Positions 9,937 to 53,846 of a DNA stretch of 64,000 nt are shown piece after piece. The stretch lies in IMG/VR virus record IMGVR_UViG_2703718869_000013, positions 32,001-96,000 of that record. One strand, 5' to 3'. How positions within the stretch are numbered: the first letter of the stretch is position 1; the number at the start of each line of letters is the position of its first letter. The DNA is from a virus. Lineage: Duplodnaviria; Heunggongvirae; Uroviricota; Caudoviricetes. Below the pieces are notes generated by a model. It was not told the origin of the DNA. It saw only the letters and a list, made by a program, of their open reading frames with translations, and did no database searches. Position numbers and translations under genes: made by a program.

Positions 9937-9968
9937 TTTTTCTGACTCGATCCAGATCGGGTTGGACG

Positions 9969-9998
9969 ATCTGCTCAGAAACCTGCCAGTTTGCTGGC
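9969..9998 (+). terminator. Hairpin AACCTGCCAG-tttg-CTGGCAGGTT followed by T7 (plus-strand orientation)
   Basis: Perfect 10-bp stem; T-run only on plus strand, so orientation is opposite to flanking genes. Confidence 0.4.
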
Positions 9999-10014
9999 AG
10001 GTTTTTTTCTTTTG

Positions 10015-11058: not shown

Positions 11059-11276
11059 AAAACCCCCTGAACGTCGGCAGAGAAGGGGAGGTTCCAGTAA
11101 CTAAGTGAATTGCGCGAGTTAGTTGAAAAACGGGCAGTAAAAATGCAGGGGCCATCAGGCAATTGAGAGCGTGCTTCGTCTTCTGTTGCTGCGATAACGA
11201 AGTGATAGTGGTGTTTTTTACAGGAATAGAAACGCCAGATGAATTCTTGGCGTGCGCAAGGATTGGCATTAACCAT
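11055..11276 (-). CDS. icd: Icd-like small protein (module A), translationally coupled to ant
   Basis: 73 codons, stop overlaps ant ATG; paralogous to 39144-39365, 46770-46991 and 53290-53511. Confidence 0.7.
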   Translation of the reverse strand: MVNANPCARQEFIWRFYSCKKHHYHFVIAATEDEARSQLPDGPCIFTARFSTNSRNSLSYWNLPFSADVQGVL

Positions 11277-11289
11277 AGTTACGGCCTCA

Positions 11290-11480
11290 CTAACAGGTTT
11301 AACAACCTGCTACCCGCTGTCAAACAGGTGGCAGGACGTGACAGGGTTGACAGACTGGCGTTAGTGAAACCAGCAGGCCGAAGCCTCCCCATCACGCCCC
11401 ACCATAATTCGGGCGTAACGCGGTTTACGGACACAAAAATACCGCAATATCGGAAATCTGCGGTTGTCCGCACTAACATT
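11290..11480 (-). ncRNA. c4: c4-like antisense RNA region (module A) with flanking target repeats
   Basis: Conserved structured block with GGCTTCGGCC tetraloop hairpin; motif triples TTTGACAG/CTGTCAA and GTTAGTG/CACTAAC; exact RNA ends not determinable. Confidence 0.55.
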
Positions 11481-11589
11481 CAGGCTGTCAAACCTGGTCG
11501 CAGAATTTGCTACGACGGCAGAACTATAAGCCTGAACGATTAAAAGGTCAATATGATGCGAAAAGATAGCATTCGCGACTTAAAAATAC

Positions 11590-11606
11590 AAATTTATTAG
11601 AGCATT
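11590..11606. promoter_or_regulatory. C1-operator-like site upstream of module A (Op51-like)
   Basis: 16/17 match to the operator 17-mer; adjacent TTGTGCA-ATAAA-TGCACAA palindrome. Confidence 0.6.
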
Positions 11607-11701
11607 ATTTGTGCAATAAATGCACAAATGGATCTAATAACCTCTTTTTTTTAAAGGCGAAAATATGTACCCTAAATGGGTTATAAGGCAGGTGAGATTA
11701 T

Positions 11702-11833
11702 AATGAGAAGACTATTACTACCGTTATTATTTATGGCCGGGACTGTTAATGCAGCATCAAGCGTAAAGGAGATTTGTACCGATTATACGAAATACCTTGG
11801 GCACGTTTACGCCTTTGCGATCAATGACTATTA
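11702..11833 (+). CDS. Small secreted peptide (signal peptide then 26-aa mature part)
   Basis: ATG with AGGTGAG Shine-Dalgarno; MRRLLLPLLFMAGTVNA signal-like N-terminus; below the ORF-track size cutoff. Confidence 0.4.
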
Positions 11834-11855
11834 ATCCATGCGTAGGAGTGGATTT

Positions 11856-12173
11856 ATGCTGATTCGTTTGTTTTTAGTGCTTTCCTTTTTAACATTTAAT
11901 GTTTTTGCTGATGAAGTTGACTTTTCGAAGGTAGATTGCAATTCAGTGGAAACAAGAAAAGCTCTTATTGAAGAATATAACGAAATATTATCGTCATATG
12001 GAATAACAGTGGTTGATTCTTATAATCAAAAAACTATTCAGAAAGGAATAAATAAACTGGTTTGTTATGGGGTTTACCAATATTCAGATGGCTCTTCGGA
12101 GTATGTTATTTATAAAGCATACCCAAATAGTCTTGGTGAATTGATTAGTGAGTTTAAACCGATTAATGAGTGA
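11856..12173 (+). CDS. Secreted hypothetical protein
   Basis: ATG at 11856 preceded by AGGAG; MLIRLFLVLSFLTFNVFA signal peptide; track ORF starts at upstream in-frame ATG 11838. Confidence 0.5.
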   Translation: MLIRLFLVLSFLTFNVFADEVDFSKVDCNSVETRKALIEEYNEILSSYGITVVDSYNQKTIQKGINKLVCYGVYQYSDGSSEYVIYKAYPNSLGELISEFKPINE

Positions 12174-12180
12174 ATGGAAA

Positions 12181-12960
12181 ATGAAATTATTTAATGTAAT
12201 AACATTTTGTTGTGCTATTTTTGCTGGAAGCGCGATAGCTGATAATAAATTGCCAGATTGGCTTTCTACTTCAAAAAAAGATTATGATTTAGTAAGGGTG
12301 TTCTATTTGTCTGGATTTGCCTCGAAAGCAATGAATAATCAATTTGGTTATCATTTTCCATCTGAGTTGGTTAATGATTTTAAAGATAATGAATTTGCCG
12401 CTCAGGAAAAATGGAATACAATTTCAATTGTATATGGTGAAATAAAATCCATAAGAATGGTGAATAATGAACCAATTGTAGAGTTATTTACTCCAGGGGA
12501 AAATGCAACGCCACTAAATTATATCAAATTGAAAGTGTTGGATTCAAAACAAAACTCTCTGTTAAAACTAAAAAAAGGGGATGATATATATGCAGTGTGC
12601 TCCGGTGCTAATTTTAGGTTAGTGCCAATTCTGAGCAACTGCACTCCAGCAACTGACGTCATTGATGCTGCACTCTCTTTTTCTGGTGAATATATGTTCC
12701 CTGCTTTTGATTCTTTTTCACCTACTAAGCAAAACGTCAAATATATATTCACAAATCAAGATCCTGTTCAGATGATGAATTTTATAGGGTACCTATCCTT
12801 AGTCGATACAACGAAGGATAAGAATAAAATGGATATGGTTCGTAAGTGTACGCCTTGGAAGCCGGAATGTTCACAACAATTCGTTGATGTAATGGAAGGA
12901 TTTGATAACATCATGTATAAATATGAGAGGGAATTTAAAAATTACATAGAATTAAAATAG
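12181..12960 (+). CDS. Secreted hypothetical protein (possible Sim-like superinfection exclusion, by position only)
   Basis: MKLFNVITFCCAIFAGSAIA signal peptide; AT-rich; divergent from the c4-icd-ant module; track ORF starts at 12148. Confidence 0.5.
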   Translation: MKLFNVITFCCAIFAGSAIADNKLPDWLSTSKKDYDLVRVFYLSGFASKAMNNQFGYHFPSELVNDFKDNEFAAQEKWNTISIVYGEIKSIRMVNNEPIVELFTPGENATPLNYIKLKVLDSKQNSLLKLKKGDDIYAVCSGANFRLVPILSNCTPATDVIDAALSFSGEYMFPAFDSFSPTKQNVKYIFTNQDPVQMMNFIGYLSLVDTTKDKNKMDMVRKCTPWKPECSQQFVDVMEGFDNIMYKYEREFKNYIELK

Positions 12961-21852: not shown

Positions 21853-24702
21853 ATGAATGACGTTACAGTTGTTACATCGGTTACTTACCCATCACCCGAG
21901 TCGTTGGCTCTGGTTGCTGATGTGCAATACCACGAACCATATCTGTCAGCCGCGCTAAACCGAAAATTCAGGGGGATTGTTGACCCGGGATTTTATGCCG
22001 GTTTCTTACCTAAGCCTGGCGGTGGGATGAACCTGTTAATCACCTCAGTGGATGGAGATAAAACCGCAGGCGCGGCGTCGGTGGATATTGGTGAATTCTA
22101 CCAGGTAACTATTCAGCAATGTACGGATATTCCTCTTGCACTTAGTGCAGGCAAGAAATATGCAATTGTGCTGAAGGGAAGATACCTCCTTGGAGAGGAT
22201 ACCTATCAGGTTAATACCGCGTCACATATTCATGCGGCTGAATTTGTTACCAGAACCTATACCGATTCATATCAGTTAGGAGATGGGGAGCTGCTTGTTT
22301 GTACGGTGAATATCCCTGCTGGAGTATCAGCCATTACCCAGGAGATGATTGATACATCCGAGCGTATTAACCGCACGATCGGCATTGATATCTCAGACTC
22401 TGTAACCAGTAGCAGAAGTGATGTTGCTGCAAGTTCGCTGGCAGTTAAAAAAGCCTACGATCTGGCGAACAGTAAGTATACGGCGCAGGATGCAAGCACA
22501 ACGCAAAAGGGATTAGTTCAGCTCAGTAGCGAAACTAACAGCGACAGCGAAACAATGGCGGCTACCCCTAAAGCCGTTAAGTCTGTAAAAGATCTTGCTG
22601 ATACCAAAGCGCCAATAGAAAGCCCGAGTCTGACAGGAACGCCAACCGCGCCGACGGCAGCGCAAGGTACAAATAGCACGCAGATCGCAAATACAGCCTT
22701 TGTTAAGGCAGCTATAACGGCACTTATCAACGGTGCACCTGGCACACTGGATACGCTTAAAGAAATAGCTGCTGCGATCAATAACGACCCGAATTTCAGC
22801 ACAACTATCAACAATGCTCTGGCTCTTAAAGCTCCTTTAGCAAGTCCTGCATTAACGGGAATACCTACTGCGCCTACCGCTGCACAGGGTACGAATAACA
22901 CGCAGATTGCTACGACCGCTTATGTAAGAGCTGCCATATCCGCATTGGTTGGTTCATCACCAGAAGCTCTTGATACCCTGAATGAGCTTGCCGCAGCACT
23001 TGGTAATGACCCGAACTTTGCGACAACAATGACAAATGCGCTGGCAGGCAAACAGCCTCTGGATGCAACTTTAACCGCGCTTGCTGGTCTTGCTACAGGC
23101 GCAAATAAATTGCCGTACTTTACCGGTACAGACACTATTTCTCAGACTGACTTAACGTCAGTCGGTCGCGATATTCTGGCCAAAACAAGCGTCCTTGCTG
23201 TTATCCAATACCTTGATTTAAGAGAACTTGGCACAAGCGGTGAAAAGATCCCCCTGTTGAGCACGGCTAACAAATGGGGTGCACGCCAGACTTTCAACGG
23301 TGGGATCACCGGGGCGCTGACAGGGAACGCCGACACCGCGACGAAATTAAAAACAGCCATAAACATTAATGGCGTCAGATTCGATGGTTCGGCTGACATT
23401 AATATCAATACTCTGGTATCTCGCGGTCGCGTAACGGCCCTAGAGGCGAATGCACAGGGAACATCCGGGATTCAGCTGTATGAGGCATACAACAATGGCT
23501 ACCCTTCCCCCTATGGCAATGTGCTTCACCTTAAAGGTGCCACCGCTGCTGGCGAAGGTGAGTTATTCATTGGCTGGAGTGGCACGAGCGGTGACCATGC
23601 GCCCGTACATATCCGTTCGCGGCGTGATACTGATTCTGCCAACTGGTCTGAATGGGCGCAGGTCTATACGTCAAAAGATTCAATTCCCGGCGTCAATGCC
23701 AAAGGGGATCAGGACACCTCTGGTAATGCGGCTACAGCGACCAAGTTGCAGACAGCATGTACTATCAATGGCGTCTCGTTTGATGGTTCTACTGATATCA
23801 CTTTAACCGCTGCGCATGTTGCTGCTTTTGCCAGAAGAGCAACGGATACGTATGCCGATGCGGATGGGGGCGTTCCCTGGAATGCCGAATCAGGCGCTTA
23901 CAATGTCATTCGCTCTGCCGACAGCTATATTCTGGTTAACTTCTATACCGGAGTCGGAAGTTGCCCGACCTTGCAGATGAAGGCGCATTACAGAAATGGT
24001 GGTCTGTTCTACCGTTCTTCAAGAGACGGTTATGGTTTTGAGGAAGACTGGGCAGAAGTTTATACCTCGAAAAATCTTCCACCAGAAAGCTACCCAGTCG
24101 GCGCACCAATCCCGTGGCCATCAGATACCGTTCCGTCTGGTTATGCCCTGATGCAGGGGCAGACTTTTGACAAATCTGCATACCCGAAACTTGCAGCGGC
24201 TTATCCGTCAGGCGTTATTCCTGATATGCGTGGCTGGACGATTAAGGGCAAGCCCGGCAGTGGTCGTGCCGTATTGTCTCAGGAACAGGACGGCATTAAA
24301 TCGCACACCCACAGCGCCAGCGCATCCAGTACGGATTTGGGGACGAAAACCACATCGTCGTTTGATTACGGTACTAAAACGACCAGTTCATTTGATTACG
24401 GCACAAAAACTACGAATAGCGCTGGAAATCATTCACACAATATACCTGTTGGTCACACTGGCGCGGGGAATGGTGTATCAGCCGGTTTTAACGCTGCGTT
24501 AGGTACTGGTACCACGTCGAGCGCAGGCGAGCATGCTCACAATGTATATATCGGTGCCCATAACCACACTATCGGCATTGGTGCTCATGCCCATTCTGTC
24601 ATTATTGGTCCCCACGGACACACCATCACCGTTAACGCTACGGGTAACGAAGAAAACACCGTAAAAAACATCGCATTTAACTATATTGTGAGGCTTGCAT
24701 AA
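21853..24702 (+). CDS. Tail fiber protein
   Basis: Repeated SP(S/A)LTG(T/I)[11 protein letters not shown](S/N)TQIA..A(F/Y)V(K/R)AAI collar-type repeats; C-terminal His-rich HxH repeats; ATG at 21853 has an AGGA Shine-Dalgarno (track ORF begins at 21766). Confidence 0.85.
24338..24414 (+). repeat. Three tandem imperfect 30-bp repeats encoding [10 protein letters not shown] inside the tail fiber gene
   Basis: Direct reading of DNA and translation. Confidence 0.7.
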
Positions 24703-25280
24703 TGACATTCAGAATGAGTGAACAATCACGGACCATAAAAATTTATAATCTACTGGCTGGAACCAATGAGTTTATTGGTGAAGGTGATGCATACATTCCA
24801 CCTCATACAGGTCTGCCTGCAAACAGTACCGATATTGCCCCGCCAGATATTCCGGCTGGCTTCGTGGCCGTTTTCAACAGTGATGAGGCATCGTGGAATC
24901 TCGTTGAAGACCATCGGGGAAAAACCGTCTATGACGTGGCTTCCGGCGACGCGTTATTTATTTCTGAACTTGGCCCATTACCGGAAAATGTCACCTGGTT
25001 ATCCCCGGAAGGGGAGTTTCAGAAGTGGAACGGCACAGCCTGGGTGAAAGATGCAGAAGCAGAAAAACTGTTCCGGATCCGGAAGGCGGAAGAAACAAAA
25101 AACAGCCTGATGCAGATGGCCAGTGAGCATATTGCGCCACTTCAGGATGCCGTAGATTTGGATATTGCGACGGAGGAAGAGGCATCGTTACTGACTGCAT
25201 GGAAGACATATCGGGTATTGTTGAATCGTGTTGATACAACAGTAGCATCGGATGTTGAGTGGCCAGTCGCCCCGCAATAA
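24702..25280 (+). CDS. Tail fiber assembly chaperone (U/Tfa family)
   Basis: 192 aa; start overlaps tail fiber stop; U/Tfa-type sequence as recalled. Confidence 0.8.
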
Positions 25281-25323
25281 AAGGATAAAGCCATCGATAG
25301 AAATATTGATGGCTTCATGTACT

Positions 25324-25896
25324 CTATTTATACAATACAACACCGCTCTTTTTTGTTATATATGTGCAGTTCGATGGTATATCTTTATTTATAAAAGACA
25401 TTGCACCTATTTTTACATTATCCCCAATTTTACGTGATAATCCAATGATGCAACAATTAGCTCCGATATCAACGTTATTACCAATTTTTACTCTTGAACC
25501 AGGCATGTCACCATCTACCTGTCCAATGGTAGTATTCTGTCGCAAAACCAGATTTTCACCAGCATCAACAGCAAAATGAACAACAATTCCAGTATGATGG
25601 GGAATTGTTAAACCTTTTCCAATATTTGCGCCCAATCCAATTTCGCAACCAAATCTGTTAATTATATTATTGTTTAACTTTCTGGCTGCTTTCTTATGTA
25701 ATTTATTGCCATTAATATACATTTCATTAGCCAGTCTCCACCAGAAAAGGAAATTCCGATTGCGCTGCTTCTTCTCTCTTAATAGTCGCCAAACATCCAT
25801 TTTTTCACGCCTGATGATTTCAGCCATCCAGTAGCTCAATAGAGCTTTTGAATTCCCGAAGATGACAAAGTGAATAGCTATTAAGTAACATAACAT
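25324..25896 (-). CDS. Hexapeptide-repeat O-acetyltransferase (serine/sugar acetyltransferase-like)
   Basis: Left-handed beta-helix hexapeptide repeats (IGLGANIGKGLTIPHHTGIVV, IGNNVDIGANCCIIG, IGDNVKIGAMS); AT-rich gene; start codon choice uncertain. Confidence 0.75.
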   Translation of the reverse strand: MLCYLIAIHFVIFGNSKALLSYWMAEIIRREKMDVWRLLREKKQRNRNFLFWWRLANEMYINGNKLHKKAARKLNNNIINRFGCEIGLGANIGKGLTIPHHTGIVVHFAVDAGENLVLRQNTTIGQVDGDMPGSRVKIGNNVDIGANCCIIGLSRKIGDNVKIGAMSFINKDIPSNCTYITKKSGVVLYK

Positions 25897-26363
25897 ATTG
25901 CAACTGCCTATATTTTTTGGTTTCTATGTTTATATATTGACATTATAATTAAAACAATAATCATCAGTGTGTTACTGCGTTCCTGCTAAACTAAATCAAC
26001 GCACAATGTAAACACAAATGTTAATTTTAAACTGAGCGCTAAAGGGATGTCAATATTGTATTGATAATGAGTTGCAAGATTGCCAACACTTTCTATATTT
26101 TTGGATGTAATAATTTATATTTTATCTATTTAGTGTTTCTTTAGACTTATTAAGGATGTCATTATTAATTTATGGCTTGCCATTTCTATACATATCTGTT
26201 AAAAATTTTGACTTGTTTGTTGAAAATAGATTTAATTGATTGGTTTATTTTTTACATGACGCTCTTTAATATAGCTTCAGGTATATATAAGCACAATGCA
26301 TTATTTCCAGAGGAAATTAACAAAATTGTTAGCTCTTATTTGTTGAGCTTATAGATATTAATT

Positions 26364-26384
26364 AAGGCCCGATTCCGGGCCTTT
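26364..26384. terminator. Hairpin GGCCCG-attc-CGGGCC with flanking A/T runs
   Basis: Stem-loop between AT-rich island and lysis genes. Confidence 0.45.
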
Positions 26385-26601
26385 CCTCATTCCGGCTTTT
26401 CGGGAAACGTTACTGGAAGGATGGAGGTATCCGTGGATTCGACTTTCTGCGCATAGAGAATCCACTCGGTTAATTTTTGTTTACCCTGAACGGAAATAAT
26501 GCCTAGCCGTAACTGTGAGTCCCAGAGCTGAGTTTTATCCCTGACGAGCTGTAGCAGGCTTTGCTTTTCTTTTTCCGCTTGTTGTCTTTGCATGACCGGT
26601 T

Positions 26602-30293: not shown

Positions 30294-31625
30294 CATCCTC
30301 CACGCCCCGAAGGGCGTGGATTCCTGCTACGTTCAGGCTGTCGCCTGAATCATTTCGGTGGGTTCCTGCTTCAACGGGCGGCCTGACTGCACCATCCCTC
30401 CACAGGCAAGTACGGCGTGTCCCGCCGCTAAAATGTTACGAGCGCCGTTTACATCGGCGTTCGCTGTATATCCACATACCTGGCATCTGAATTTACTTTG
30501 TGACAGGCGATTTTCTTTCGCTGTATGACCACAGCACGCGCAACGCTGGCTTGTGTACGCTGGCGGAACAGCAAGCACCTGACCGCCACGCCAGAGCTGC
30601 TTGTACTCAAGCTGGCGGCGCATTTCATACCAGCCCTGATCCAGTATCGAACGGTTTAAACCTGATTTTGCCCGGACATTGCGACCCGGATGACTTATCG
30701 TTCCCGCCGCTGACTTTGACATGTATTTAACCTTCAAATCCTCAATGACAATCATTGCGTGGTTTTTGCTGATGATCGTTGTGACTTTATGAAGGTAGTC
30801 TCTGCGGATATTTGCGATACGAAAATGCAGTCGCTGTATTTTGCGTTTCTGCTTCTGCCAGTTGTTGCTGAATTTGACCTTGCGGCTTAACTGTCGCTGA
30901 AGTCTCGCCAGCTTCTTCTGGTTTTTCTGAAAACTGTTTACAGGCTCAAAGACTGTGCCATCTGACAGCGTGGCGAGTTTAGCCACGCCAGCATCCAGCC
31001 CGATCATTGATGCTGAAGGGTGAACCGGAGTGGATATTTCACTTTCTGTCTGAATACTGATGTACCACTTACCGCAGGACTGGCTGACAGTGACATTTTT
31101 CACAACTCCCGTGACCTGACGGCTATTCCGGTAGCGCATCCAGCCCAGTTTCGGCAGAAAAATACGGCTGTTTTCCTGATCGAGCTTAACGCCCTGCGGG
31201 TAGCGAAATGCATCATTCTGTCCCCGCTTTTTGAATCGGGGAAAAGCAGCCCGATTCTGGAAGAAGTTTTTGTAAGCCCGCTCAAGGTCTTTCAGTGACT
31301 GTTGCAATGGCTGTGAGGGAGAATCTATAAGCCATTCGGTTTCAGTGTCTTTTTTCCACTCAACCAACCAGGAAGCCATTTTCGTGTAAGGGATGTATTT
31401 TTTACCGGCCTCATGATTCTCATTCTGAAGCGCCAGAGCACGGTTGAAAACGAAACGACAAGCTCCGGCAAAGTGCCTCATTTGACACTCCTGTTGACCA
31501 TCTGGTTTTAACCGGAATTTGAATGACACCTGTTGTTTCATGTCACTATTTTAAGCAAAAATAGCCGGGAGGAAAACTGTGCCTTATATCCCCACTATGA
31601 GGAGCGTAGGGGGCGGCACATTGGA
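30294..31625 (-). mobile_element. TnpB-only IS200/IS605-family element (approximate ends)
   Basis: Single tnpB gene, no tnpA; perfect hairpin CCACGCCC-cgaa-GGGCGTGG at about 30300-30319 next to the tnpB 3' end; imperfect hairpin near the other end; element ends are inferred. Confidence 0.6.
30333..31541 (-). CDS. tnpB: TnpB (RuvC-like, zinc-ribbon) transposon-associated nuclease
   Basis: 402 aa; C-terminal CACCGH..C..CGY zinc-ribbon and RuvC-like segments typical of OrfB/TnpB. Confidence 0.85.
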
Positions 31626-37997: not shown

Positions 37998-38555
37998 ATG
38001 AAGGGAAAAACAGCCGCAGGAGGCGGTGCAATTTGCGCTATCGCGATGATGATTACCATCGTGATGGATAATGGCAATGTGCGAACCAACCAGGCGGGGC
38101 TTGAGCTTATCGGAAACGCTGAAGGTTGCCGACGTGATCCATACAAGTGCCCGGCGGGTGTATGGACCGACGGGATCGGTAATACACACGGGGTAACGCC
38201 TGGCGTGCGAAAAACCGACCAGCAAATCGCCGCTGATTGGGAAAAGAATATCCTGATCGCTGAACGCTGTATTAACCAGCACTTCCGGGGCAAAGACATG
38301 CCCGATAATGCCTTCAGCGCAATGACAAGCGCGGCATTCAATATGGGATGCAATAGTTTACGGACCTACTACAGCAAAGCGCGAGGCATGCGAGTCGAAA
38401 CGTCCATCCACAAGTGGGCGCAGAAAGGGGAATGGGTGAATATGTGTAACCATCTCCCTGATTTTGTGAACAGTAACGGCGTCCCCCTGCCCGGGTTAAA
38501 GATTCGCCGTGAAGAAGAACGCCAGCTTTGCCTGACGGGGCTTGTCAATGAATAA
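37998..38555 (+). CDS. lyz: SAR endolysin (T4-lysozyme-like, signal-anchor-release type)
   Basis: N-terminal Gly/Ala-rich weakly hydrophobic segment followed by lysozyme catalytic region, as in P1 Lyz; internal ATG at 37998 gives the 185-aa product, track start 37899 rejected. Confidence 0.9.
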   Translation: MKGKTAAGGGAICAIAMMITIVMDNGNVRTNQAGLELIGNAEGCRRDPYKCPAGVWTDGIGNTHGVTPGVRKTDQQIAADWEKNILIAERCINQHFRGKDMPDNAFSAMTSAAFNMGCNSLRTYYSKARGMRVETSIHKWAQKGEWVNMCNHLPDFVNSNGVPLPGLKIRREEERQLCLTGLVNE

Positions 38556-38799
38556 ACTCCGGCAGCTCCGCCGACTTTCGACAATGAAGTTATCGCTGGC
38601 GGCGATAGTTTTTGACTCGATTTTCATGGCGGTATATGTGCTCAATGAGACGTGGCCACTGGAACCACTATTATATGCCGGGCTTCGGCTGTGCCTGACA
38701 TTTTTGAGCATGGCTGCAAGATTGATGCAGCAGAAAGAAACCGCTTCAGATTGCCCACGTCGCGCGGTGCGCAAATATATGGCACGCAGGCGAAGATGA
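38542..38799 (+). CDS. Small membrane protein with basic C-terminus (holin/antiholin-like topology)
   Basis: 85-aa ORF overlapping lyz stop; two hydrophobic segments and RKYMARRRR tail; may be spurious. Confidence 0.35.
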   Translation: MSMNKLRQLRRLSTMKLSLAAIVFDSIFMAVYVLNETWPLEPLLYAGLRLCLTFLSMAARLMQQKETASDCPRRAVRKYMARRRR

Positions 38800-38809
38800 T
38801 TTAACCATT

Positions 38810-38843
38810 ATTGCTCTAATAAATTTGATTTATTAGAGCAAAT
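38810..38843. promoter_or_regulatory. Tandem inverted C1 operators (ATTGCTCTAATAAATTT / GATTTATTAGAGCAAAT) upstream of module B
   Basis: First half is a 17/17 match to the operator 17-mer, second half 15/17 in inverted orientation. Confidence 0.75.
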
Positions 38844-38924
38844 AACCTACCATCGAACACGGCTCTATTGATCTCATCGTCGTTCAGGCTTATAGTTCCA
38901 CCGTCGTAGCAAATTCTGCGACCA

Positions 38925-39125
38925 GGTTTGACAGCCTGAATACTTGTGCGGACAACCGCAGATTTCCGATATTGCGGTATTTTTGTGTCCGTAAAACCGC
39001 GTTACGCCCGAATTATGGTGGGGCGTGATGGGGAGGCTTCGGCCTGCTGGTTTCACAAGTGCCAGTCTGTCAACCCTGTCACGTCCTGCCACCTGTTTGA
39101 CAGCGGGTAGCAGGTTGTTAATTCA
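38925..39125 (+). ncRNA. c4: c4-like antisense RNA region (module B) with flanking target repeats
   Basis: Triples GTTTGACAG / CTGTCAACC / GTTTGACAG and ACTTGTG / CACAAGT / ACTTGTGAGG; GGCTTCGGCC hairpin; downstream target overlaps the icd Shine-Dalgarno. Confidence 0.6.
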
Positions 39126-39143
39126 ACTTGTGAGGCCGTAACT

Positions 39144-39365
39144 ATGGTTAATGCCAATCCTTGCGCACGCCAAGAATTCATCTGGCGTTTCTATTCCTGT
39201 AAAAAACACCACTATCACTTCGTTATCGCAGCAACTGAAGACGAAGCACGCTCTCAATTGCCTGATGGCCCCTGCATTTTTACTGCCCGTTTTTCAACTA
39301 ACTCGCGCAATTCACTTAGTTACTGGAGCCTCCCCTTCTCTGCCGACGTTCAGGGGGGTTTATGA
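39144..39365 (+). CDS. icd: Icd-like small protein (module B)
   Basis: 73 codons; stop overlaps ant ATG (ATGA). Confidence 0.75.
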   Translation: MVNANPCARQEFIWRFYSCKKHHYHFVIAATEDEARSQLPDGPCIFTARFSTNSRNSLSYWSLPFSADVQGGL

Positions 39366-40405
39366 AAAAACCTCTCGTCACCCGTAATGACATAGCCGAA
39401 GCGATCGCCCTGCATACTGCCTGTATGCCGACACGGGAGATCCCCGGCGCAATTGCCAACTATTTCATGATAACCAGGCGTTTTTATACCCGAACAGATA
39501 AGGCTGTGATCAACAGGCTACTGATAGCCGAGATCAGGGATTATTTGATTGAACAAGGACGTCTACGTTACGCAACGGTGGCAGCAGAAATGAGAAAGGA
39601 GGCACATAGAATGACCAGTAATAATTTGAATGTTAAAAAACCAGCATCTGTTGCTTCAGCTACGCCATCACCAGCTGTGAATGTTATCTCCAACACTGGA
39701 GATACAATCGACAGCCAGACGCTGTTAAAGATGGTTAATGAGGCGCGCAAGCTATGTGGGGAAAATGAGATCCGCAATAACGATTTTCTCAATAGAATTA
39801 AGGATGAACTTGATGGGGAATTTTACGAAACTTTCGTAAAATCCCATGGCACAAGGGCCGGGCGCTCTTTTGAGGTCATAACCATGACCTACAAACAAGC
39901 CCTGCGAGTCGCCGCGCGCGAGTCAAAAGCGGTCCGCCGTTCGCTGATCGACAAACTGGAAGAATTGCAGCAGGCAAACTCCCCTACCCCATCGATCCCC
40001 CAAACATTACCAGAAGCCCTACGTCTGGCTGCCGAGTTAGCAGAACAGAAAATGCAGTTGGAACAACAGCTGGTGGCCGCAGCCCCTAAAGTCGATTTTG
40101 CTGACCGGGTATCAGCGGCTAATGGAATCCTGATCGGGAACTTTGCAAAGGTCGTTGGACTTAAGCAAAACGCCCTTTTCTCATGGTTGCGCCAGAACGG
40201 CATTCTCATGGCTTTTGGTGCGCGCAAAAACGTACCGCGCCAGCAATACATCAACGCCGGGTATTTCACGGTGAAAGAAGTGGTGCTGGATGATGAAGAT
40301 GGTTACCAGATACGGCTGACGCCCCAATTAACGGGTAAAGGCCAGCAGTGGTTGACGCGTAAACTGCTCGATGCAGGTTTATTAAAGCCTGTAGCGGCTG
40401 AGTGA
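39362..40405 (+). CDS. ant: Antirepressor Ant (module B)
   Basis: 347 aa; ANT/KilAC C-terminal domain; translational coupling to icd. Confidence 0.8.
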   Translation: MKKPLVTRNDIAEAIALHTACMPTREIPGAIANYFMITRRFYTRTDKAVINRLLIAEIRDYLIEQGRLRYATVAAEMRKEAHRMTSNNLNVKKPASVASATPSPAVNVISNTGDTIDSQTLLKMVNEARKLCGENEIRNNDFLNRIKDELDGEFYETFVKSHGTRAGRSFEVITMTYKQALRVAARESKAVRRSLIDKLEELQQANSPTPSIPQTLPEALRLAAELAEQKMQLEQQLVAAAPKVDFADRVSAANGILIGNFAKVVGLKQNALFSWLRQNGILMAFGARKNVPRQQYINAGYFTVKEVVLDDEDGYQIRLTPQLTGKGQQWLTRKLLDAGLLKPVAAE

Positions 40406-40417
40406 TTAAATTAAAAA

Positions 40418-40436
40418 GGCGGCCTTTCGGCCGCCA
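40418..40436 (-). terminator. Hairpin GGCGGCC-tttc-GGCCGCC with T-run on the minus strand
   Basis: Lies between convergent ant (plus) and the head-protein gene (minus); same hairpin recurs after module C ant near 48108. Confidence 0.55.
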
Positions 40437-40480
40437 GTGATTTCAGATACCCCGGCAGCCGCCGGGGTTATTTTTGGTGG

Positions 40481-46435: not shown

Positions 46436-46469
46436 ATTGCTCTAATAAATTTGATTTATTGGGGCAAAT
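46436..46469. promoter_or_regulatory. Tandem inverted C1 operators upstream of module C
   Basis: ATTGCTCTAATAAATTT exact, followed by inverted degenerate copy. Confidence 0.7.
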
Positions 46470-46549
46470 AAACTACTATTGGACGCCAGACTATTGATCT
46501 TCCTGTTGTTCAGGCTTATAGTTCCTACGCCGTAGCAAATTCTGCGACC

Positions 46550-46752
46550 GGGTTTAGCAGCCTGAATGTACATGCGGACAACCGCAGATTTCCGATATTG
46601 CGGTATTTTTATGTCCGTAAAACCGCGTTACGCCCGAATTATGGTGGGGCGTGATGGGGAGGCTTCGGCCTGCTGGTTTCATGTACGCCAGTCTGCTAAC
46701 CCCGTCACGTCCTGCCACCCGTTTAGCAGCGGGTAGCAGGTTGTTAAACCTG
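46550..46752 (+). ncRNA. c4: c4-like antisense RNA region (module C), different specificity
   Basis: Same scaffold as module B but triples are TTTAGCAG / CTGCTAA and GTACATG / CATGTAC, changed in a compensatory way. Confidence 0.6.
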
Positions 46753-46769
46753 TACATGAGGCCGTAACT

Positions 46770-46991
46770 ATGGTTAATGCCAATCCTTGCGCACGCCCTG
46801 AATTTATCTGGCGCTTTTACTCCTGCCAGAAACGCCACTATCACTTCGTTATTGCACCGACAGAAGATGAGGCACGTTCTCAGCTTCCGGATGCTCCCTG
46901 CATTTTCTCCGCACGCTTTTCTACTGACTCGCGCAATTCTCTCAGTTACTGGTGCCTCCCTGTTAACGCTTCTGTTCAGGAGGGGCTATGA
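46770..46991 (+). CDS. icd: Icd-like small protein (module C)
   Basis: 73 codons; stop overlaps ant ATG. Confidence 0.75.
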   Translation: MVNANPCARPEFIWRFYSCQKRHYHFVIAPTEDEARSQLPDAPCIFSARFSTDSRNSLSYWCLPVNASVQEGL

Positions 46992-48100
46992 GAACGTCAT
47001 TAGTCACCCGTGAAGAGATGATCGAGGCAATTGAACAGCACACAATCTGTATCAGCACCAGGGATATACCAGGCGTTATTGCCAACTACTTCATGATCAC
47101 CAAACAACTTTACCGGAGAAAGGACAAGAACGCGGTTCACCGTATCCTGTTGTCTGATATCCGCGAATACCTGCTCGAACAGGGTCATCTGAATTACGCA
47201 ACCGTCGCAGCCGAAGCACGCAAGGAGGCACACAGAATGAAAGCAACTAACGTTAAATCAGAAAAAATTTATGCACCTTCAGTTCAGGAATCGGAACTGG
47301 TGGTTGTTCAGAATCAGCCGGATGAAATTCCCGTTCTGGAATGGCAGGGAGTACGTGTCGTAACAACCGAAACTCTTGCTAGAGGGTATGGGGTCGATGA
47401 AGCCAATATTCGCAACAATTTGTCTCGCAACCTTGACCGCTTTGAAGAAGGTAAGCATTACTTTCTTCTAACTGGTTTAAAATTAAGAGAATTTAAGAAC
47501 AGAGTAACCGGAAGTTACTCTGTTGGTAAGAACGCCAGAAGCCTTACACTCTGGACAGAGCGCGGCGCTGCACGCATGTCTAAGATCGTGGACACAAATG
47601 AAGCATGGGCATTCTTTGAAAAACTGGAAGACAGCTACTTCCGGCAAAAAGAACAGCAACCGGTCGCAATCCCTCAGACGCTTCCCGAAGCTCTGCGCCT
47701 GGCTGCCGAGCTGGCTGAACAAAAGCAACTTCTGGAACAGAAAGCCCACCAGCTAAATCAGCAGCTGGTGGCCGCCGCCCCTAAAGTCGATTTTGCCGAC
47801 CGGGTATCAGGGGCCAAGGGGATCCTGATTGGAAATTTTGCAAAGGTTGTTGGGCTTAAGCAAAACGCGTTGTTTGCCTGGTTACGGGGGAACGGCATCC
47901 TGATAGCGTCCGGTGGACGTAAAAATGTGCCGTTCCAGCAATACATCAACGCCGGGTATTTCACGGTGAAAGAAGTGGTGCTGGATGATGAAGATGGTTA
48001 CCAGATACGGCTGACGCCCCAATTAACGGGTAAAGGCCAGCAGTGGTTGACGCGTAAACTGCTCGAAGCTGGCTTGTTAAAACCGGTGGCGGCTGAATGA
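46988..48100 (+). CDS. ant: Antirepressor Ant (module C), with extra Bro-N/AntA-like central domain
   Basis: 370 aa; C-terminal ANT/KilAC domain; central WQGVRVVTTETLARGYG..LTLWTERGAARM block. Confidence 0.8.
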   Translation: MRTSLVTREEMIEAIEQHTICISTRDIPGVIANYFMITKQLYRRKDKNAVHRILLSDIREYLLEQGHLNYATVAAEARKEAHRMKATNVKSEKIYAPSVQESELVVVQNQPDEIPVLEWQGVRVVTTETLARGYGVDEANIRNNLSRNLDRFEEGKHYFLLTGLKLREFKNRVTGSYSVGKNARSLTLWTERGAARMSKIVDTNEAWAFFEKLEDSYFRQKEQQPVAIPQTLPEALRLAAELAEQKQLLEQKAHQLNQQLVAAAPKVDFADRVSGAKGILIGNFAKVVGLKQNALFAWLRGNGILIASGGRKNVPFQQYINAGYFTVKEVVLDDEDGYQIRLTPQLTGKGQQWLTRKLLEAGLLKPVAAE

Positions 48101-48339
48101 TTAAAAAAGGCGGCCTTTCGGCCGCCAATGATGTCACGGAGTCTATAATGGCAATGTCTTCGTAGTTGACTAAAGCCACAACTCAATTATAACAATTAAT
48201 TATAGCAATAGTGGCTATTTTATTTATCGCGAATCACATTTTTTCTCTTCAGTACATGTGTGCTATACTCCTTCTTGATTGATTGGATGCGGAATACAAA
48301 CCCGCTCTTTTGTGCAGCCTGGCTCCTTGCCAGGCTTTT

Positions 48340-52174: not shown

Positions 52175-53293
52175 TTATTCAGCCGCCACCGGTTTTAACA
52201 AGCCAGCATCGAGCAGTTTACGCGTCAACCACTGCTGGCCTTTACCCGTTAATTGAGGCGTCAACCGTATCTGGTAGCCATCTTCATCATCCAGCACCAC
52301 TTCTTTCACCGTGAAATACCCGGCGTTGATGTACTGCTGGAACGGCACATTTTTACGTCCACCGGACGCTATCAGGATGCCGTTCTCCCGTAACCAGACA
52401 AACAGCGCGTTTTGCTTAAGTCCAACAACCTTTGCAAAATTCCCAATCAGGATCCCTTTAGCTACTGATACCCGGTCGGCAAAATCGACTTTAGGAGCGG
52501 CGGCCACCAGCTGCTGATTTAGCTGGTGGGCTTTCTGTTCCAGAAGTTGCTTTTGTTCAGCCAGTTCGGCAGCCAGGCGTAGGACTTCAGGAAGCGTCTG
52601 GGGGATTGCGATCGGTTGCTGTTCTTTTTGTCGGAAGTAGCTGTCTTCCAGTTTTTCAAAGAATGCCCATGCCTGATCGGTTTCGAGCATTTTAGCGTGG
52701 CGGGCTGCGCCGCGTTCTGTCCAGAGGGTGAGTGAGCGAACATTGCGAGCAATTTTTACAGAGTAGTTTAAAGCTACTCTGTGCTTCAACTCGCGCAATG
52801 ATTCTCCTTCAACTTTGAAAAAGTGCTTCCCTTCAACAAAGCGTACTTTGTTCTCATGATGATTTTGGCGAATACGGATTGTTTCTGTCCCATACCCTCT
52901 CGCAAGAGTCTCGGTTGTCACTACACGCACTCCCTGCCATTCCAGAACGGGAATTTCATCAGACTGATTCTGAACAACCACCAGCTCCGATTCCTGAACT
53001 GAAGGTGCATGAATTTTTTCTAATTTAACGTTATTTGCTTTCATTCTGTGTGCCTCCTTGCGTGCTTCGGCTGCGACGGTTGCGTAATTCAGATGACCCT
53101 GTTCGAGCAGGTATTCGCGGATATCAGACAACAGGATACGGTGAACCGCGTTCTTGTCCTTTCTCCGGTAAAGTTGTTTGGTGATCATGAAGTAGTTGGC
53201 AATAACGCCAGGTATATCCCTGGTGCTGATACAGATTGTGTGCTGTTCAATTGCCTCGATCATCTCTTCACGGGTGACTAATGACGTTCTCAT
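52175..53293 (-). CDS. ant: Antirepressor Ant (module D), with Bro-N/AntA-like central domain
   Basis: 372 aa; paralogous to module C Ant; ANT/KilAC C-terminus. Confidence 0.8.
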   Translation of the reverse strand: MRTSLVTREEMIEAIEQHTICISTRDIPGVIANYFMITKQLYRRKDKNAVHRILLSDIREYLLEQGHLNYATVAAEARKEAHRMKANNVKLEKIHAPSVQESELVVVQNQSDEIPVLEWQGVRVVTTETLARGYGTETIRIRQNHHENKVRFVEGKHFFKVEGESLRELKHRVALNYSVKIARNVRSLTLWTERGAARHAKMLETDQAWAFFEKLEDSYFRQKEQQPIAIPQTLPEVLRLAAELAEQKQLLEQKAHQLNQQLVAAAPKVDFADRVSVAKGILIGNFAKVVGLKQNALFVWLRENGILIASGGRKNVPFQQYINAGYFTVKEVVLDDEDGYQIRLTPQLTGKGQQWLTRKLLDAGLLKPVAAE

Positions 53294-53511
53294 AGTCCCT
53301 CCTGAGCAGAAGCGTTAACAGGGAGGCACCAGTAACTGAGAGAATTGCGTGAATCAGTGGAAAAACGGGCAGAGAAAATACATGGGGCGTCAGGAAGCTG
53401 AGAGCGAGCCTCATCTTCTGTTGGTGCAATAACGAAGTGATAGTGACGTTTTTGGCAGGAGTAAAAGCGCCAGATAAATTCAGGATGAGTTGGGGTAGGG
53501 ATAGTAGCCAT
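53290..53511 (-). CDS. icd: Icd-like small protein (module D)
   Basis: 73 codons from ATG at 53511 with GGAGG Shine-Dalgarno; track ORF continues upstream without a start signal. Confidence 0.7.
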   Translation of the reverse strand: MATIPTPTHPEFIWRFYSCQKRHYHFVIAPTEDEARSQLPDAPCIFSARFSTDSRNSLSYWCLPVNASAQEGL

Positions 53512-53519
53512 ATTGGCAG

Positions 53520-53700
53520 CCTCCTTAGACGTTGGTATGTAACCACCGCAGAAGAGACCAATCTTGCTGGCGGTGGACTGTACGGAGTTGGCCTTACTGG
53601 CGTCCAAGGTAACCAGCCTACCCGAAGGTAGCCCCATACAGCCCACCATTGTAGAGGTGTGCGTGTACGCCGATACAAAAAAAGACGCGAGCGGCGTCTG
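53520..53700 (-). ncRNA. c4: Divergent c4-like antisense RNA region (module D)
   Basis: Homologous hairpin with same TTCG loop but different stem (CTACC/GGTAG versus AGGC/GCCT); candidate triple GTCTAAGG (upstream, downstream at SD) with CCTTGGAC in the core; terminator hairpin upstream. Confidence 0.5.
53676..53699 (-). terminator. Hairpin AGACGC-cgctc-GCGTCT followed by T7 on the minus strand
   Basis: Direct reading of the reverse complement. Confidence 0.55.
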
Positions 53701-53829
53701 TATCGCCTTAGACTTAAGCGGGAGGCCAATCCCGGCACCCGTTTTAATGAGGTGCCTGATAAGCATAAACCGAAAATGCCTCAAGGCGCAAGAGGTCAGG
53801 CTCAATGTAACATCGGTAGTTAAAAAACA

Positions 53830-53846
53830 CAATTTATTAGAGCAAA
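53830..53846. promoter_or_regulatory. C1-operator-like site upstream of module D
   Basis: 15/17 match; between pacB stop and the module D control region. Confidence 0.6.

What the first reader, a model, noticed from the sequence alone, without database searches (positions are those of the whole stretch)
38810..40405. Complete immI-type antirepressor module between lyz and the head genes: double C1 operator, c4-like antisense RNA, icd, ant
Seen directly: a tandem inverted C1 operator (38810-38843), then a conserved block in which GTTTGACAG occurs upstream (about 38927) and downstream (about 39094) of a core containing its complement CTGTCAACC (about 39066). A second triple is ACTTGTG (about 38942), CACAAGT (about 39054) and ACTTGTGAGG (about 39125); the last copy overlaps the GAGG Shine-Dalgarno of a 73-codon icd-like ORF whose stop overlaps the ant ATG. 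This is the a1/b1, a'/b', a2/b2 architecture of the P1 c4 antisense repressor that occludes the icd ribosome-binding site. As far as I recall, textbook P1 has only one such module, next to kilA, so a copy here is unexpected.
Basis: partly seen in the sequence, partly recalled or inferred. Interest (0 to 1): 0.7.

Follow-up and report, generated by a model that had tools for sequence, protein, structure and literature searches.

The report
Extra P1 antirepressor immunity module
This P1-like phage-plasmid carries a complete, apparently working second copy of the phage's antisense-RNA-controlled antirepressor switch between its lysis and head genes, with its own RNA "lock and key"; it is one of four such switches in the window, a stacking that is common in wild relatives but absent from laboratory P1 and not described in the papers I could search.

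Summary
Window 38796-40444 is a 1.65-kb insertion, absent from P1 and P7. It sits between the lydD stop codon and the lydD/pro terminator.

The insertion holds a bivalent C1 operator, a P51b-like promoter, a1/b1 targets, a 77-nt C4 RNA (Rfam 68.6 bits, correct fold), and a2/b2 targets with b2 on the icd Shine-Dalgarno. It also holds icd (70/73 identical to P1 Icd) and ant1/ant2 (KilAC domain).

This C4 differs from P1 C4 at three bases, all in loop b'. Both b1 and b2 carry the matching changes, giving a specificity that is neither P1 nor P7.

Across 38 distinct modules, all a/b target-to-C4 pairs are Watson-Crick in 100% of cells, and 8 pairs change on both sides.

The window has four such modules with four different specificities. 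Related plasmids have up to five, in fixed slots. Among complete E. coli genomes with any module, the median is two.

The lydD|pro slot is rare: 16 of 530 matching genomes and 11 of 544 matching plasmids. Here it is a chimera of cassette ends around the body of another plasmid's canonical immI allele.

Verdict: a real new member of a known system (P1 immI). The module stacking and combinatorial specificities are only mentioned in passing in the papers I could search. Interest is moderate.

The parts
38542..38799 (+). lydD (holin-like gene of the late lyz-lydD operon). It is the left flank of the insertion, and its stop codon (TGA 38797-38799) is supplied by the insert.
   Evidence: 97% identical to P1 20085-21740. 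The protein equals P1 LydD minus one C-terminal Arg. The overlapping lydE frame (38652-38804) is cut from 71 to 50 aa by the insertion.
38796..40444 (+). The inserted cassette as a whole (1,649 bp). It replaces 20 bp of P1 (GCGATAATAGTTAACGAGAA) between lydD and the lydD/pro terminator.
   Evidence: Junction comparison with P1. P1, P7 and most relatives align over only 57% of a flank-spanning query. The same left junction is found in 11 of 544 matching PLSDB records, 16 of 530 matching E. coli genomes and 3 IMG/VR contigs.
38810..38842 (.). Bivalent C1 operator: a perfect 17-mer on + (38810-38826) and an inverted 14/17 copy on - (38826-38842). It forms the 5' edge of the cassette.
   Evidence: The identical 33-bp element heads modules at the lydD|pro, mat and ban-adjacent slots of other plasmids. 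Canonical P1 Oc4 is annotated as monovalent.
38825..38853 (+). Possible C1-occluded promoter (TTGATT-17-TACCAT, 8/12), at the position of P1 P2c4/P51a.
   Evidence: and position relative to the P1 annotation in alignment A1. It is weak, falls below the scan tool's 9/12 threshold, and is inferred only.
38868..38896 (+). Sigma-70 promoter TTGATC-17-TATAGT, the equivalent of P1 P1c4/P51b. It lies outside the operator.
   Evidence: Scan hit at 9/12. It aligns with the annotated P1c4 -35 and -10. The -10 region is invariant in all but one of 38 modules.
38928..38934 (+). a1 target (TTGACAG) in the leader.
   Evidence: Complementary to a'. Lies within Rfam c4-a1b1 hit 38890-38942, 57.1 bits. Covaries with a'.
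38942..38948 (+). b1 target (ACTTGTG) in the leader.
   Evidence: Complementary to b'. 6 of 7 b1:b' pairs show double compensatory changes across 38 modules, with 100% paired.
39017..39093 (+). C4 antisense RNA (predicted mature 77 nt). b' is CACAAGU (39054-39060) in the hairpin-2 loop, and a' is CUGUCAA (39067-39073) in the unpaired junction.
   Evidence: Rfam RF01695, 68.6 bits. Fold -43.3 kcal/mol, z -4.9. Differs from the annotated P1 C4 only at positions 41, 43 and 44, all in b'.
39097..39103 (+). a2 target (TTGACAG) between C4 and icd.
39126..39133 (+). b2 target (ACTTGTGA), overlapping the icd Shine-Dalgarno GAGG (39132-39135).
   Evidence: All 8 b':b2 pairs are paired in 38 of 38 modules, and 6 of them change on both sides.
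39144..39365 (+). icd (73 aa, cell-division inhibitor homologue). It is translationally coupled to ant through an ATGA overlap.
   Evidence: 70/73 identical to P1 Icd. NCBIfam NF033153 at 52.3 bits, cut-off 25. Overlap shown.
39362..40405 (+). ant1 (347 aa antirepressor). The nested in-frame ant2 starts at ATG 39611, preceded by AAGGAGG (264 aa).
   Evidence: 320/347 identical to P1 Ant1. Pfam ANT/KilAC PF03374 at 108.5 bits and PHROG 63 'anti-repressor Ant' at 350 bits. dN/dS is 0.20 against the window's canonical ant. The ant2 start is shown.
40418..40435 (.). Cassette 3'-end hairpin GGCGGCC-TTTC-GGCCGCC. On the minus strand it is followed by a T-run, so it looks like a terminator for pro/prt transcripts entering ant in antisense.
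   Evidence: Terminator scan. The same hairpin ends module 3 at 48109-48126 and the lydD|pro module of CP013030.
40449..40468 (+). Native lydD/pro intergenic terminator (CCCCGGCAGCCGCCGGGG followed by TTATTTTT). It now serves as the terminator downstream of ant and is the right flank of the insertion.
   Evidence: Present in P1 immediately after the 20 replaced bases. Terminator scan.

Best explanation
Window 38796-40444 is a self-contained accessory copy of the P1 immI operon, carried as a cassette. It sits in the 20-bp gap between the lydD stop codon and the lydD/pro terminator.

Proposed mechanism, by homology with P1 immI:
1. In a lysogen, C1 sits on the bivalent operator and shuts any operator-overlapped promoter.
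2. The downstream P51b-like promoter stays on and makes a leader-c4-icd-ant transcript.
3. The 77-nt C4 RNA is cut out of that transcript.
4. Loops a' (CUGUCAA) and b' (CACAAGU) of C4 pair with a2 and b2. This covers the icd ribosome-binding site.
5. Because ant is translationally coupled to icd, neither the division inhibitor Icd nor the antirepressor Ant1/Ant2 is made.
6. If C4 is outrun or absent, Ant is made and inactivates C1.

This module keeps the P1-type 'a' pairing but has its own 'b' pairing (ACTTGTG/CACAAGT). The C4 of the window's canonical immI therefore cannot cover its ribosome-binding site, and vice versa.

The likely biological role has two sides. A prophage that makes four different C4 RNAs should silence the antirepressors of more kinds of superinfecting relatives. 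A phage that carries four differently keyed antirepressor modules should be more likely to escape the C4 set of a resident relative.

The present copy is a recombinant. It has cassette ends (bivalent operator, 3' hairpin) around a body that is an allele of the canonical immI of other P1-like plasmids.

Shown here: the sequence anatomy, family membership, fold, three-way covariation, intact genes under purifying selection, the insertion polymorphism and the chimeric origin. Inferred from P1 work: RNA processing, translational repression and coupling, Ant-C1 antagonism, C1 control of the promoters, and the ecological role.
For: Family and fold:
- Rfam C4 at 68.6 bits and c4-a1b1 at 57.1 bits, both above gathering.
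- The MFE fold matches the C4 consensus with a' and b' exposed, z -4.9.

Homology and gene integrity:
- 93.5% nucleotide identity to P1 48207-49721, the c4-icd-ant1 region, with every annotated P1 immI element alignable.
- Icd is 70/73 identical to P1 Icd and hits NF033153.
- Ant is 320/347 identical to P1 Ant1, with a KilAC domain, the nested ant2 start conserved and dN/dS 0.20.

Specificity:
- C4 differs from P1 C4 at only three bases, all in b'. Both b1 and b2 carry the complementary changes.
- Across 38 distinct modules the a1:a', b1:b', a':a2 and b':b2 pairs are standard pairs in 100% of 532 and 570 cells.
- 8 pairs change on both sides, none changes on one side only, and 0 of 500 shuffles reach the observed score. 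Slid controls pair in 27-48% of cells.
- Predicted duplex energies are about -9/-11 kcal/mol for cognate a/b. Non-cognate pairs reach that on at most one of the two elements.
- All co-resident modules examined differ in a or b: the window, three complete plasmids, and four further genome pairings from IMG/VR loci.
- One plasmid (CP074905) holds the P7 type in the canonical slot and the P1 type in this slot.

Insertion and origin:
- Insertion polymorphism with clean junctions.
- Per-100-nt identity of the ant gene to the canonical immI of p15648-1 is 100% until the last ~150 nt. The whole body 38880-40395 is 98.9% identical.
- That p15648-1 segment is followed by kilA and repL, so it is that plasmid's canonical immI.

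Background: c4 represses ant translation by pairing around the ribosome-binding site, and this underlies P1/P7 heteroimmunity (review PMC12197685; network summary PMC8546580).
Against: - No expression data exist. Nothing here shows that the RNA is made or processed, or that Ant from this copy binds the resident C1.
- Module 2 shares its 'a' pairing with the canonical module. Partial cross-repression is therefore possible, and the degree of independence is unknown.
- The absence of duplicated specificities within a genome is not statistically compelling. From the type frequencies I estimate that random pairing of canonical and lydD|pro types would clash only about one time in ten. The other slots have nearly fixed types.
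- The operator-overlapped promoter is weak (8/12), so what C1 actually controls at this copy is uncertain.
- The module lies directly downstream of the late lyz-lydD operon with no intervening plus-strand terminator. Part of its expression may therefore be late read-through rather than immI-like.
Confidence: 0.8

Rival explanations
1. Late-phase lock. Because the cassette sits directly downstream of the Lpa-dependent late lyz-lydD operon, its main job at this site would be different. Late read-through would swamp C4 and express Icd and Ant, reinforcing lytic commitment by removing residual C1 and blocking division. On this reading the C4/operator parts are inherited baggage.
For: No plus-strand terminator-like site lies between the lydD stop (38799) and the module. 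The first one is the native terminator at 40449-40468, after ant. The module is co-oriented with lyz-lydD in every record seen.
Against: The same cassette, with an identical bivalent operator, works from quite different transcriptional contexts in other slots: divergent from mat, and beside ban. All a/b pairings stay perfect at this slot even though the b type varies among plasmids (ACGAATG, GTTAGTG, GATTGTG, ACTTGTG). That argues that C4 control is under selection here. All lydD|pro copies share one junction, so the common orientation may reflect a single insertion event rather than selection.
Confidence: 0.1
2. Non-functional passenger: a duplicated or recombined immI copy that is silent or decaying and confers nothing.
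For: No functional data exist. The copy is a recombinant of two sources. Laboratory P1 and P7 do well without it.
Against: All ORFs are intact, including the nested ant2 start. dN/dS is about 0.2. The promoter, the operator and all six pairing elements are intact and mutually complementary. The slot is occupied by intact modules in independent E. coli and E. albertii plasmids from several continents.
Confidence: 0.08
3. Assembly artefact: a repeat-induced misjoin that placed a copy of immI between lyz and pro.
For: The window holds four partly similar modules, which is the kind of repeat that can confuse assemblers. One short IMG/VR contig (L014) does show a mismatched b1/b' versus b2 combination that could be chimeric.
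Against: The same left junction, base for base, occurs in 16 complete E. coli genomes, 11 PLSDB plasmids and 3 IMG/VR contigs from unrelated projects. The junction-specific leader and tail are not present at the canonical immI.
Confidence: 0.02

Closest known systems
Bacteriophage P1 immI operon (Oc4/Op51, P51a/P51b, a1 b1, c4, a2 b2, icd, ant1/ant2)
   Same: Same order and spacing of every element. 93.5% nucleotide identity over 1.5 kb. Same 'a' pairing. Same C4 fold. Icd is 96% identical to P1 Icd and Ant is 92% identical to P1 Ant1. Same icd/ant overlap and ant2 start.
   Different: The location differs: lydD|pro rather than sim|kilA-repL. The operator is bivalent rather than monovalent. 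The b specificity is ACTTGTG/CACAAGT rather than GTTAGTG/CACTAAC. The last 10 nt of ant and the 3' hairpin tail differ. It coexists with a canonical copy.
Bacteriophage P7 immI (the classical heteroimmune partner of P1)
   Same: Same architecture. It illustrates that changing the C4 loops and their targets together creates a new immunity specificity (PMC12197685).
   Different: P7 differs from P1 in both a (TTAGCAG/CTGCTAA) and b (GATTGTG/CACAATC). The module here keeps the P1 'a' and has a third 'b'.
Canonical immI allele of E. coli plasmid p15648-1 (NZ_CP009051) and relatives (AP018798, CP074817)
   Same: 98.9% identical over 38880-40395, and 100% per 100-nt window across the ant gene until its last ~150 nt. 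Same a and b types.
   Different: There it is the sole kilA/repL-linked immI with the canonical monovalent-type leader. Here it is embedded between cassette ends at another locus.
[quoted passage not shown]
   Same: The same phenomenon of additional immI-like units. The window's module 4 is the pacB|c1 one.
   Different: Those reports are one-line mentions. None places a module between lyz/lydD and pro, and none analyses the C4 specificities.
Gifsy-1 IsrK-orf45-AnrP antirepressor unit (Salmonella)
   Same: A small-RNA-controlled, translationally coupled short ORF plus antirepressor. The leader of the window's module 4 hits Rfam isrK directly upstream of its C4 (PMC12197685).
   Different: IsrK is reported to activate rather than repress orf45 translation. 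Module 2 has a c4-a1b1 leader rather than an isrK-like one.

Membership tests
C4 antisense RNA (Rfam RF01695) | Covariance-model score at or above the curated gathering score | tested here: met
   68.6 bits against 45, E 3e-11, full length 1-87 of 87 at 39011-39096.
C4 antisense RNA (Rfam RF01695) | Long closing stem enclosing two hairpins, with b' in the second hairpin loop and a' single-stranded in the junction | tested here: met
   The MFE and centroid structures are identical, -43.3 kcal/mol, z -4.9. The loop is UUCACAAGU and the junction CUGUCAA.
C4 antisense RNA (Rfam RF01695) | Processed from a longer transcript to a 77-nt RNA (RNase P substrate in P1; my own knowledge of Citron & Schuster 1992 and Hartmann et al. 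1995, not readable here) | not testable with these tools
   The predicted ends 39017 and 39093 are identical in sequence to those of the annotated P1 c4. There are no RNA data.
P1-type immI operon | Downstream targets a2 and b2 complementary to a' and b', with b2 overlapping the icd ribosome-binding site | tested here: met
   7 and 8 contiguous Watson-Crick pairs. b2 ACTTGTGA runs into GAGG, 9 nt before the ATG. 100% paired with compensatory changes across 38 modules.
P1-type immI operon | Upstream targets a1 and b1 in the leader (Rfam c4-a1b1, RF03163) | tested here: met
   57.1 bits against 46.7 at 38890-38942. 100% paired, with 8 of 14 pairs changed on both sides.
P1-type immI operon | icd followed by translationally coupled ant1, with in-frame ant2 | tested here: met
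   ATGA overlap at 39362-39365. ant2 ATG at 39611 with AAGGAGG. Icd hits NF033153, and Ant hits PF03374 and PHROG 63.
P1-type immI operon | C1 operator upstream, with one C1-controlled and one constitutive promoter | tested here: inconclusive
   The operator is a perfect match plus an inverted 14/17 copy. The P51b-like promoter is 9/12 and lies outside the operator. The P51a-like candidate is only 8/12. Which promoter is C1-controlled is my recollection of the P1 literature, not something I could read here.
P1-type immI operon | Genomic position between sim and kilA-repL | tested here: not met
   It lies between lydD and pro. The window's sim/kilA-linked copy is at 10015-11606 on the minus strand. 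This makes module 2 an extra copy, not the immI locus.
P1-type immI operon | Ant1/Ant2 complex inactivates C1; Icd blocks cell division | not testable with these tools
   Only homology is available (92% to P1 Ant1 and 96% to P1 Icd).

The most novel reading that the evidence does not exclude
Wild P1-like phage-plasmids may run a combinatorial antisense 'immunity barcode'. C4 specificity is built from two independently reassorting pairings: at least three 'a' types and at least seven 'b' types were seen here.

Complete C4-icd-ant cassettes headed by a bivalent C1 operator occupy up to five fixed slots per genome. Alleles move between slots by recombination, as in this window, where a canonical-slot allele has replaced the body of the lydD|pro cassette.

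Stacking differently keyed modules would serve two purposes at once. It would widen the range of relatives a prophage can hold in check, and it would let the phage break the immunity of resident relatives. That would be an arms race fought with three-nucleotide changes in an RNA loop.
Probability: 0.45. Interest if true: 0.65.

Novelty: new member of a known kind. Interest (0 to 1): 0.48.

Why it matters
P1/P7 heteroimmunity is the textbook case of immunity specificity set by an antisense RNA, but it has been treated as a two-allele curiosity of one locus.

The data here suggest that natural P1-like plasmids carry several such units:
- The plasmids are common in STEC, E. albertii and Salmonella and can carry resistance genes.
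- The pairing elements are strictly co-varying and reassort.
- The units sit at defined slots.

If the modules are independent in vivo, they predict which phage-plasmids can coexist, exclude each other or induce each other. That bears on the spread of these elements.

They would also provide a natural set of orthogonal small-RNA/ribosome-binding-site pairs. These differ by three to seven bases in an otherwise constant scaffold, and each is directly testable with reporter fusions.

Tried and rejected
Literature:
- Six searches succeeded. They found only passing mentions of extra icd/ant genes (PMC6906374, PMC6799933).
- The primary P1 papers are not held: Lobocka 2004, Citron & Schuster 1992, Heinrich 1994, and Gilcrease & Casjens 2018. 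Statements about RNase P processing, P51a/P51b control and Rho polarity therefore rest on my own knowledge. I cannot exclude that Gilcrease & Casjens 2018 catalogued C4 types.
- The 2026 O111:H8 preprint (PMC13596339) says nothing on immI.

Test of selection for distinct specificities within a genome:
- All co-resident modules examined do differ in a or b.
- The expected clash rate under random pairing is low (my rough estimate type frequencies: about one in ten).
- Slot-specific types are nearly fixed, so the sample has no power. I dropped the claim of demonstrated selection.

Other checks:
- The genome-contig scan gave only 4 loci, one of them spurious (L092, Phycisphaerae, 46% over 38 residues). 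It added nothing.
- I looked for target-site duplications or shared recombination motifs at the cassette junctions and found none. Flanks simply diverge just upstream of TTATTGCTC.
- I checked whether the operator matched the other bivalent operator on these plasmids. It does not: the one upstream of dam is 28 bp with a 6-nt overlap.
- No identical copy of the window's module with its flanks exists in PLSDB or RefSeq complete E. coli genomes. The best full-length match is CP074905 at 95.2%.
- Structure prediction and large protein searches were not used. Homology to P1 proteins is above 90%, so they could not change the verdict.
Full report
**1. What the window is**

blastn against P1 (NC_005856) shows a P1-like phage-plasmid, inverted relative to the P1 record. 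The canonical immI region (sim-c4-icd-ant-kilA-repL) lies at window 7246-12345 on the minus strand and is 98% identical to P1.

The finding lies elsewhere. Window 37139-38795 matches P1 21740-20085 (ssb, lyz, lydD). Window 40445-43420 matches P1 20068-17093 (pro, prt). Between them, 38880-40395 matches P1 48207-49721, which is c4-icd-ant1, at 93.5% identity.

**2. The observation**

See the observation check for the list.

- The 'double operator' is a perfect C1 17-mer (38810-38826) plus an inverted 14/17 copy (38826-38842) overlapping it by one base.
- Operator-like sites are 35-fold over-represented in the window: 13 against 0.37 expected.
- Rfam places a full-length C4 at 39011-39096 (68.6 bits, gathering 45) and the c4-a1b1 leader motif at 38890-38942 (57.1 bits, gathering 46.7).
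- The RNA folds into the family consensus at -43.3 kcal/mol (z -4.9, 0 of 200 shuffles as stable). CACAAGU sits in the second hairpin loop and CUGUCAA is unpaired.

**3. Anatomy**

Aligned with the annotated P1 immI, the unit reads in this order:
- bivalent operator;
- a weak operator-overlapped promoter candidate, TTGATT-17-TACCAT;
- a good promoter, TTGATC-17-TATAGT, at the place of P1c4/P51b and outside the operator;
- a1 and b1;
- C4, predicted mature ends 39017-39093;
- a2, then b2 running into the GAGG of icd;
- icd, 73 aa, 70/73 identical to P1 Icd, NF033153;
- an ATGA overlap into ant1, 347 aa, 320/347 identical to P1 Ant1, KilAC domain, PHROG 63;
- the nested ant2 start at 39611 behind AAGGAGG.

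C4 differs from P1 C4 at exactly three bases, positions 41, 43 and 44, all in b'. Both b1 and b2 carry the complementary changes.

**4. It is an insertion, and a cassette**

In P1 the lydD stop is followed by 20 bp and then the terminator CCCCGGCAGCTGCCGGGG-TTATTTTT. In the window those 20 bp are replaced by 1,649 bp (38796-40444), and the terminator is retained.
- LydD loses one residue.
- The overlapping lydE frame is cut from 71 to 50 codons.
- Pro is untouched apart from its last residue.

P1, P7, RCS47, SJ46 and about 97% of related plasmids lack the insert. The identical left junction occurs in 11 of 544 matching PLSDB records, 16 of 530 matching complete E. coli genomes and 3 IMG/VR contigs. 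The hosts are E. coli (often O111, O103 or bovine isolates) and E. albertii.

The first 84 bp (operator leader) and the last 49 bp are not canonical immI sequence. The tail is a GGCGGCC-TTTC-GGCCGCC hairpin that reads as a terminator on the minus strand.
- The same leader heads modules in two other slots, beside mat and beside ban.
- The same hairpin closes the mat-slot module.
- Flanks diverge immediately upstream of TTATTGCTC, so the operator is the cassette's 5' edge.

**5. The present copy is a recombinant**

- The body 38880-40395 is 98.9% identical to a segment of p15648-1 and related plasmids.
- There it is the canonical, kilA/repL-linked immI.
- Identity across the ant gene is 100% per 100-nt window until the last ~150 nt, where it falls to 95-98%.
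- In most other plasmids the lydD|pro slot holds an ORF6N-type Ant of 370-372 aa, like the window's modules 3 and 4.

So a canonical-slot allele has replaced the body of the slot cassette here. ant is under purifying selection, with dN/dS 0.20 against the window's canonical copy.

**6. Four modules, four keys**

Rfam finds C4 four times in the window, and each has icd and ant behind it.

| Module | Position | a type | b type | Notes |
|---|---|---|---|---|
| 1 | canonical immI | TTGACAG | GTTAGTG | the P1 type |
| 2 | lydD/pro (this finding) | TTGACAG | ACTTGTG | |
| 3 | 46436-48126 | TTAGCAG | GTACATG | replaces ref, between mat and c8 |
| 4 | 52175-53846, minus strand | GATTGGCC | GTCTAAGG | between c1 and pacB; isrK-like leader |

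P7 is TTAGCAG + GATTGTG.

Predicted loop-target duplexes are about -9 and -11 kcal/mol for cognate pairs. Non-cognate pairs reach that on at most one of the two elements.

**7. Population evidence that the pairings matter**

From 84 Icd-encoding loci plus four complete replicons I extracted 106 modules, 41 of them distinct. 38 of the P1/P7 scaffold type align cleanly.
- 24 of the 45 variable alignment columns fall within the 44 columns (of 275) that make up the six pairing elements.
- Leader targets to C4: 14 pairs, 532 cells, 100% standard pairs. 8 pairs change on both sides (116 cells) and none changes on one side only. 0 of 500 shuffles reach the covariation score.
- With the partner slid by 1-3 columns, only 27-40% of cells pair.
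- C4 to icd-RBS targets: 15 pairs, 570 cells, again 100% paired. 8 pairs change on both sides, and slid controls pair in 27-48% of cells.

The a and b types reassort: P1-a and P7-a each occur with several b types. Only one exception to three-way matching appeared, on a 4.9-kb contig (L014). It is either a recombinant or an assembly chimera.

**8. Stacking is the rule in the wild**

A query covering icd and the conserved 5' part of ant gave these counts against complete E. coli genomes:
- 661 of 5,426 genomes have a match;
- 1,136 places in all;
- median two and maximum seven per genome.

Complete plasmids examined carry four (CP013030, CP074905) or five (AP042542) modules. The slots are canonical, lydD|pro, mat|c8, c1|pacB and ban-adjacent.

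No two co-resident modules share both a and b. Pairings of IMG/VR loci by genome agree. CP074905 has the P7 type in the canonical slot and the P1 type in the lydD|pro slot.

This non-redundancy is suggestive but not statistically demonstrable with this sample. Expected clashes are few.

**9. Mechanism and role**

The mechanism is taken from P1 immI. C4 pairs around the ribosome-binding site and blocks antirepressor synthesis, and this is the basis of P1/P7 heteroimmunity (PMC12197685). The Ant1/Ant2 complex antagonises C1 (PMC8546580). RNase P processing, translational coupling with Rho polarity, and the C1-controlled versus constitutive promoters are my recollection of papers that are not held.

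Everything needed for that mechanism is intact in this copy. The role I favour is a wider immunity range for the prophage and a wider anti-immunity range for the infecting phage. That role is inference.

An alternative specific to this slot is late read-through from lyz-lydD. It is allowed by the absence of an intervening terminator. It is disfavoured because the cassette works from other contexts and keeps its C4 pairings perfect while its b type varies at this very slot.

**10. Comparison with what is known, and novelty**

The unit meets every testable defining feature of a P1-type immI operon except genomic position. Promoter control is inconclusive (see the membership table). It is therefore a new member of a known kind.

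RefSeq already annotates its icd and ant genes in sister plasmids, without the RNA. The searchable literature mentions extra icd/ant copies only in passing and at other positions. I could not read Gilcrease & Casjens 2018.

The following may be under-described and are worth a targeted experiment:
- combinatorial a-by-b specificities;
- slot-resident cassettes headed by a bivalent operator;
- allele exchange between slots;
- up to five differently keyed modules per plasmid.

Overall interest is moderate.

Noticed in passing
window 46436-48126 (+): A third complete module occupies the place of the ref gene between mat and c8/cre. It has an operator at 46436-46452, C4 at 46637-46722, icd at 46770-46991, and a 370-aa ORF6N+KilAC Ant at 46988-48100. 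It ends with the same 3' hairpin at 48109-48126. Its specificity is TTAGCAG + GTACATG, and the second operator half-site is degenerate.
   Followed up: partly
window 52175-53846 (-): A fourth module lies between c1 and pacB, convergent with c1. It has C4 at 53566-53653 (75.9 bits), icd at about 53290-53511, and a 372-aa ORF6N+KilAC Ant at 52175-53293. Its leader scores as Rfam isrK (53678-53755, 60.8 bits against 50). This suggests that the Gifsy-1 IsrK-orf45-AnrP unit and P1 immI share one architecture. The a2 pairing includes one G-U.
   Followed up: partly
window 38652-38804 (+): The insertion truncates lydE (putative antiholin in the P1 annotation) from 71 to 50 codons, with a new 'MI' C-terminus. 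LydD loses one Arg.
   Followed up: partly
L095 (NZ_CP013030) 24380-25965; L098 (NZ_AP042542) 1-685: A fifth slot for the same cassette exists in related plasmids. It lies downstream of the ban (dnaB) operon, carries the identical 33-bp bivalent operator, and has specificity TTGACAG + GTACATG. It is not present in this window.
   Followed up: partly
L014 (IMGVR_UViG_2565956613_000015): This is the only module whose elements do not match: b1 and b' are ACGAATG/CATTCGT but b2 is GTTAGTG. It is either a natural recombinant predicted to be derepressed, or an assembly chimera of two co-resident modules on a 4.9-kb contig.
   Followed up: no
window 39700-39860 (ant nt 350-500): Divergence between the two P1-type ant genes of the window is concentrated here (69-72% identity, against 96-100% elsewhere). 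This lies just after the Ant2 start and could be a specificity-determining patch.
   Followed up: no
L095 (NZ_CP013030) about 31577-31604; same in CP074905 and AP042542: A second kind of bivalent C1 operator (28 bp, ATTACACTAATAAATTTATTAGAGCAAT, half-sites overlapping by 6 nt) sits upstream of the dam/dmt gene. Its geometry differs from the 33-bp cassette operator.
   Followed up: no
window 25045-25243 (+): Rfam IS009 (RF02111) hit at 192 bits, full length. It lies in a stretch (23792-26591) with no match to the part of P1 compared (positions 1-52500).
   Followed up: no
window 40418-40435: The cassette's 3' hairpin is followed by a T-run only on the minus strand. It should therefore terminate pro/prt late transcripts before they run antisense into ant, as if the cassette carries its own insulation.
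   Followed up: no
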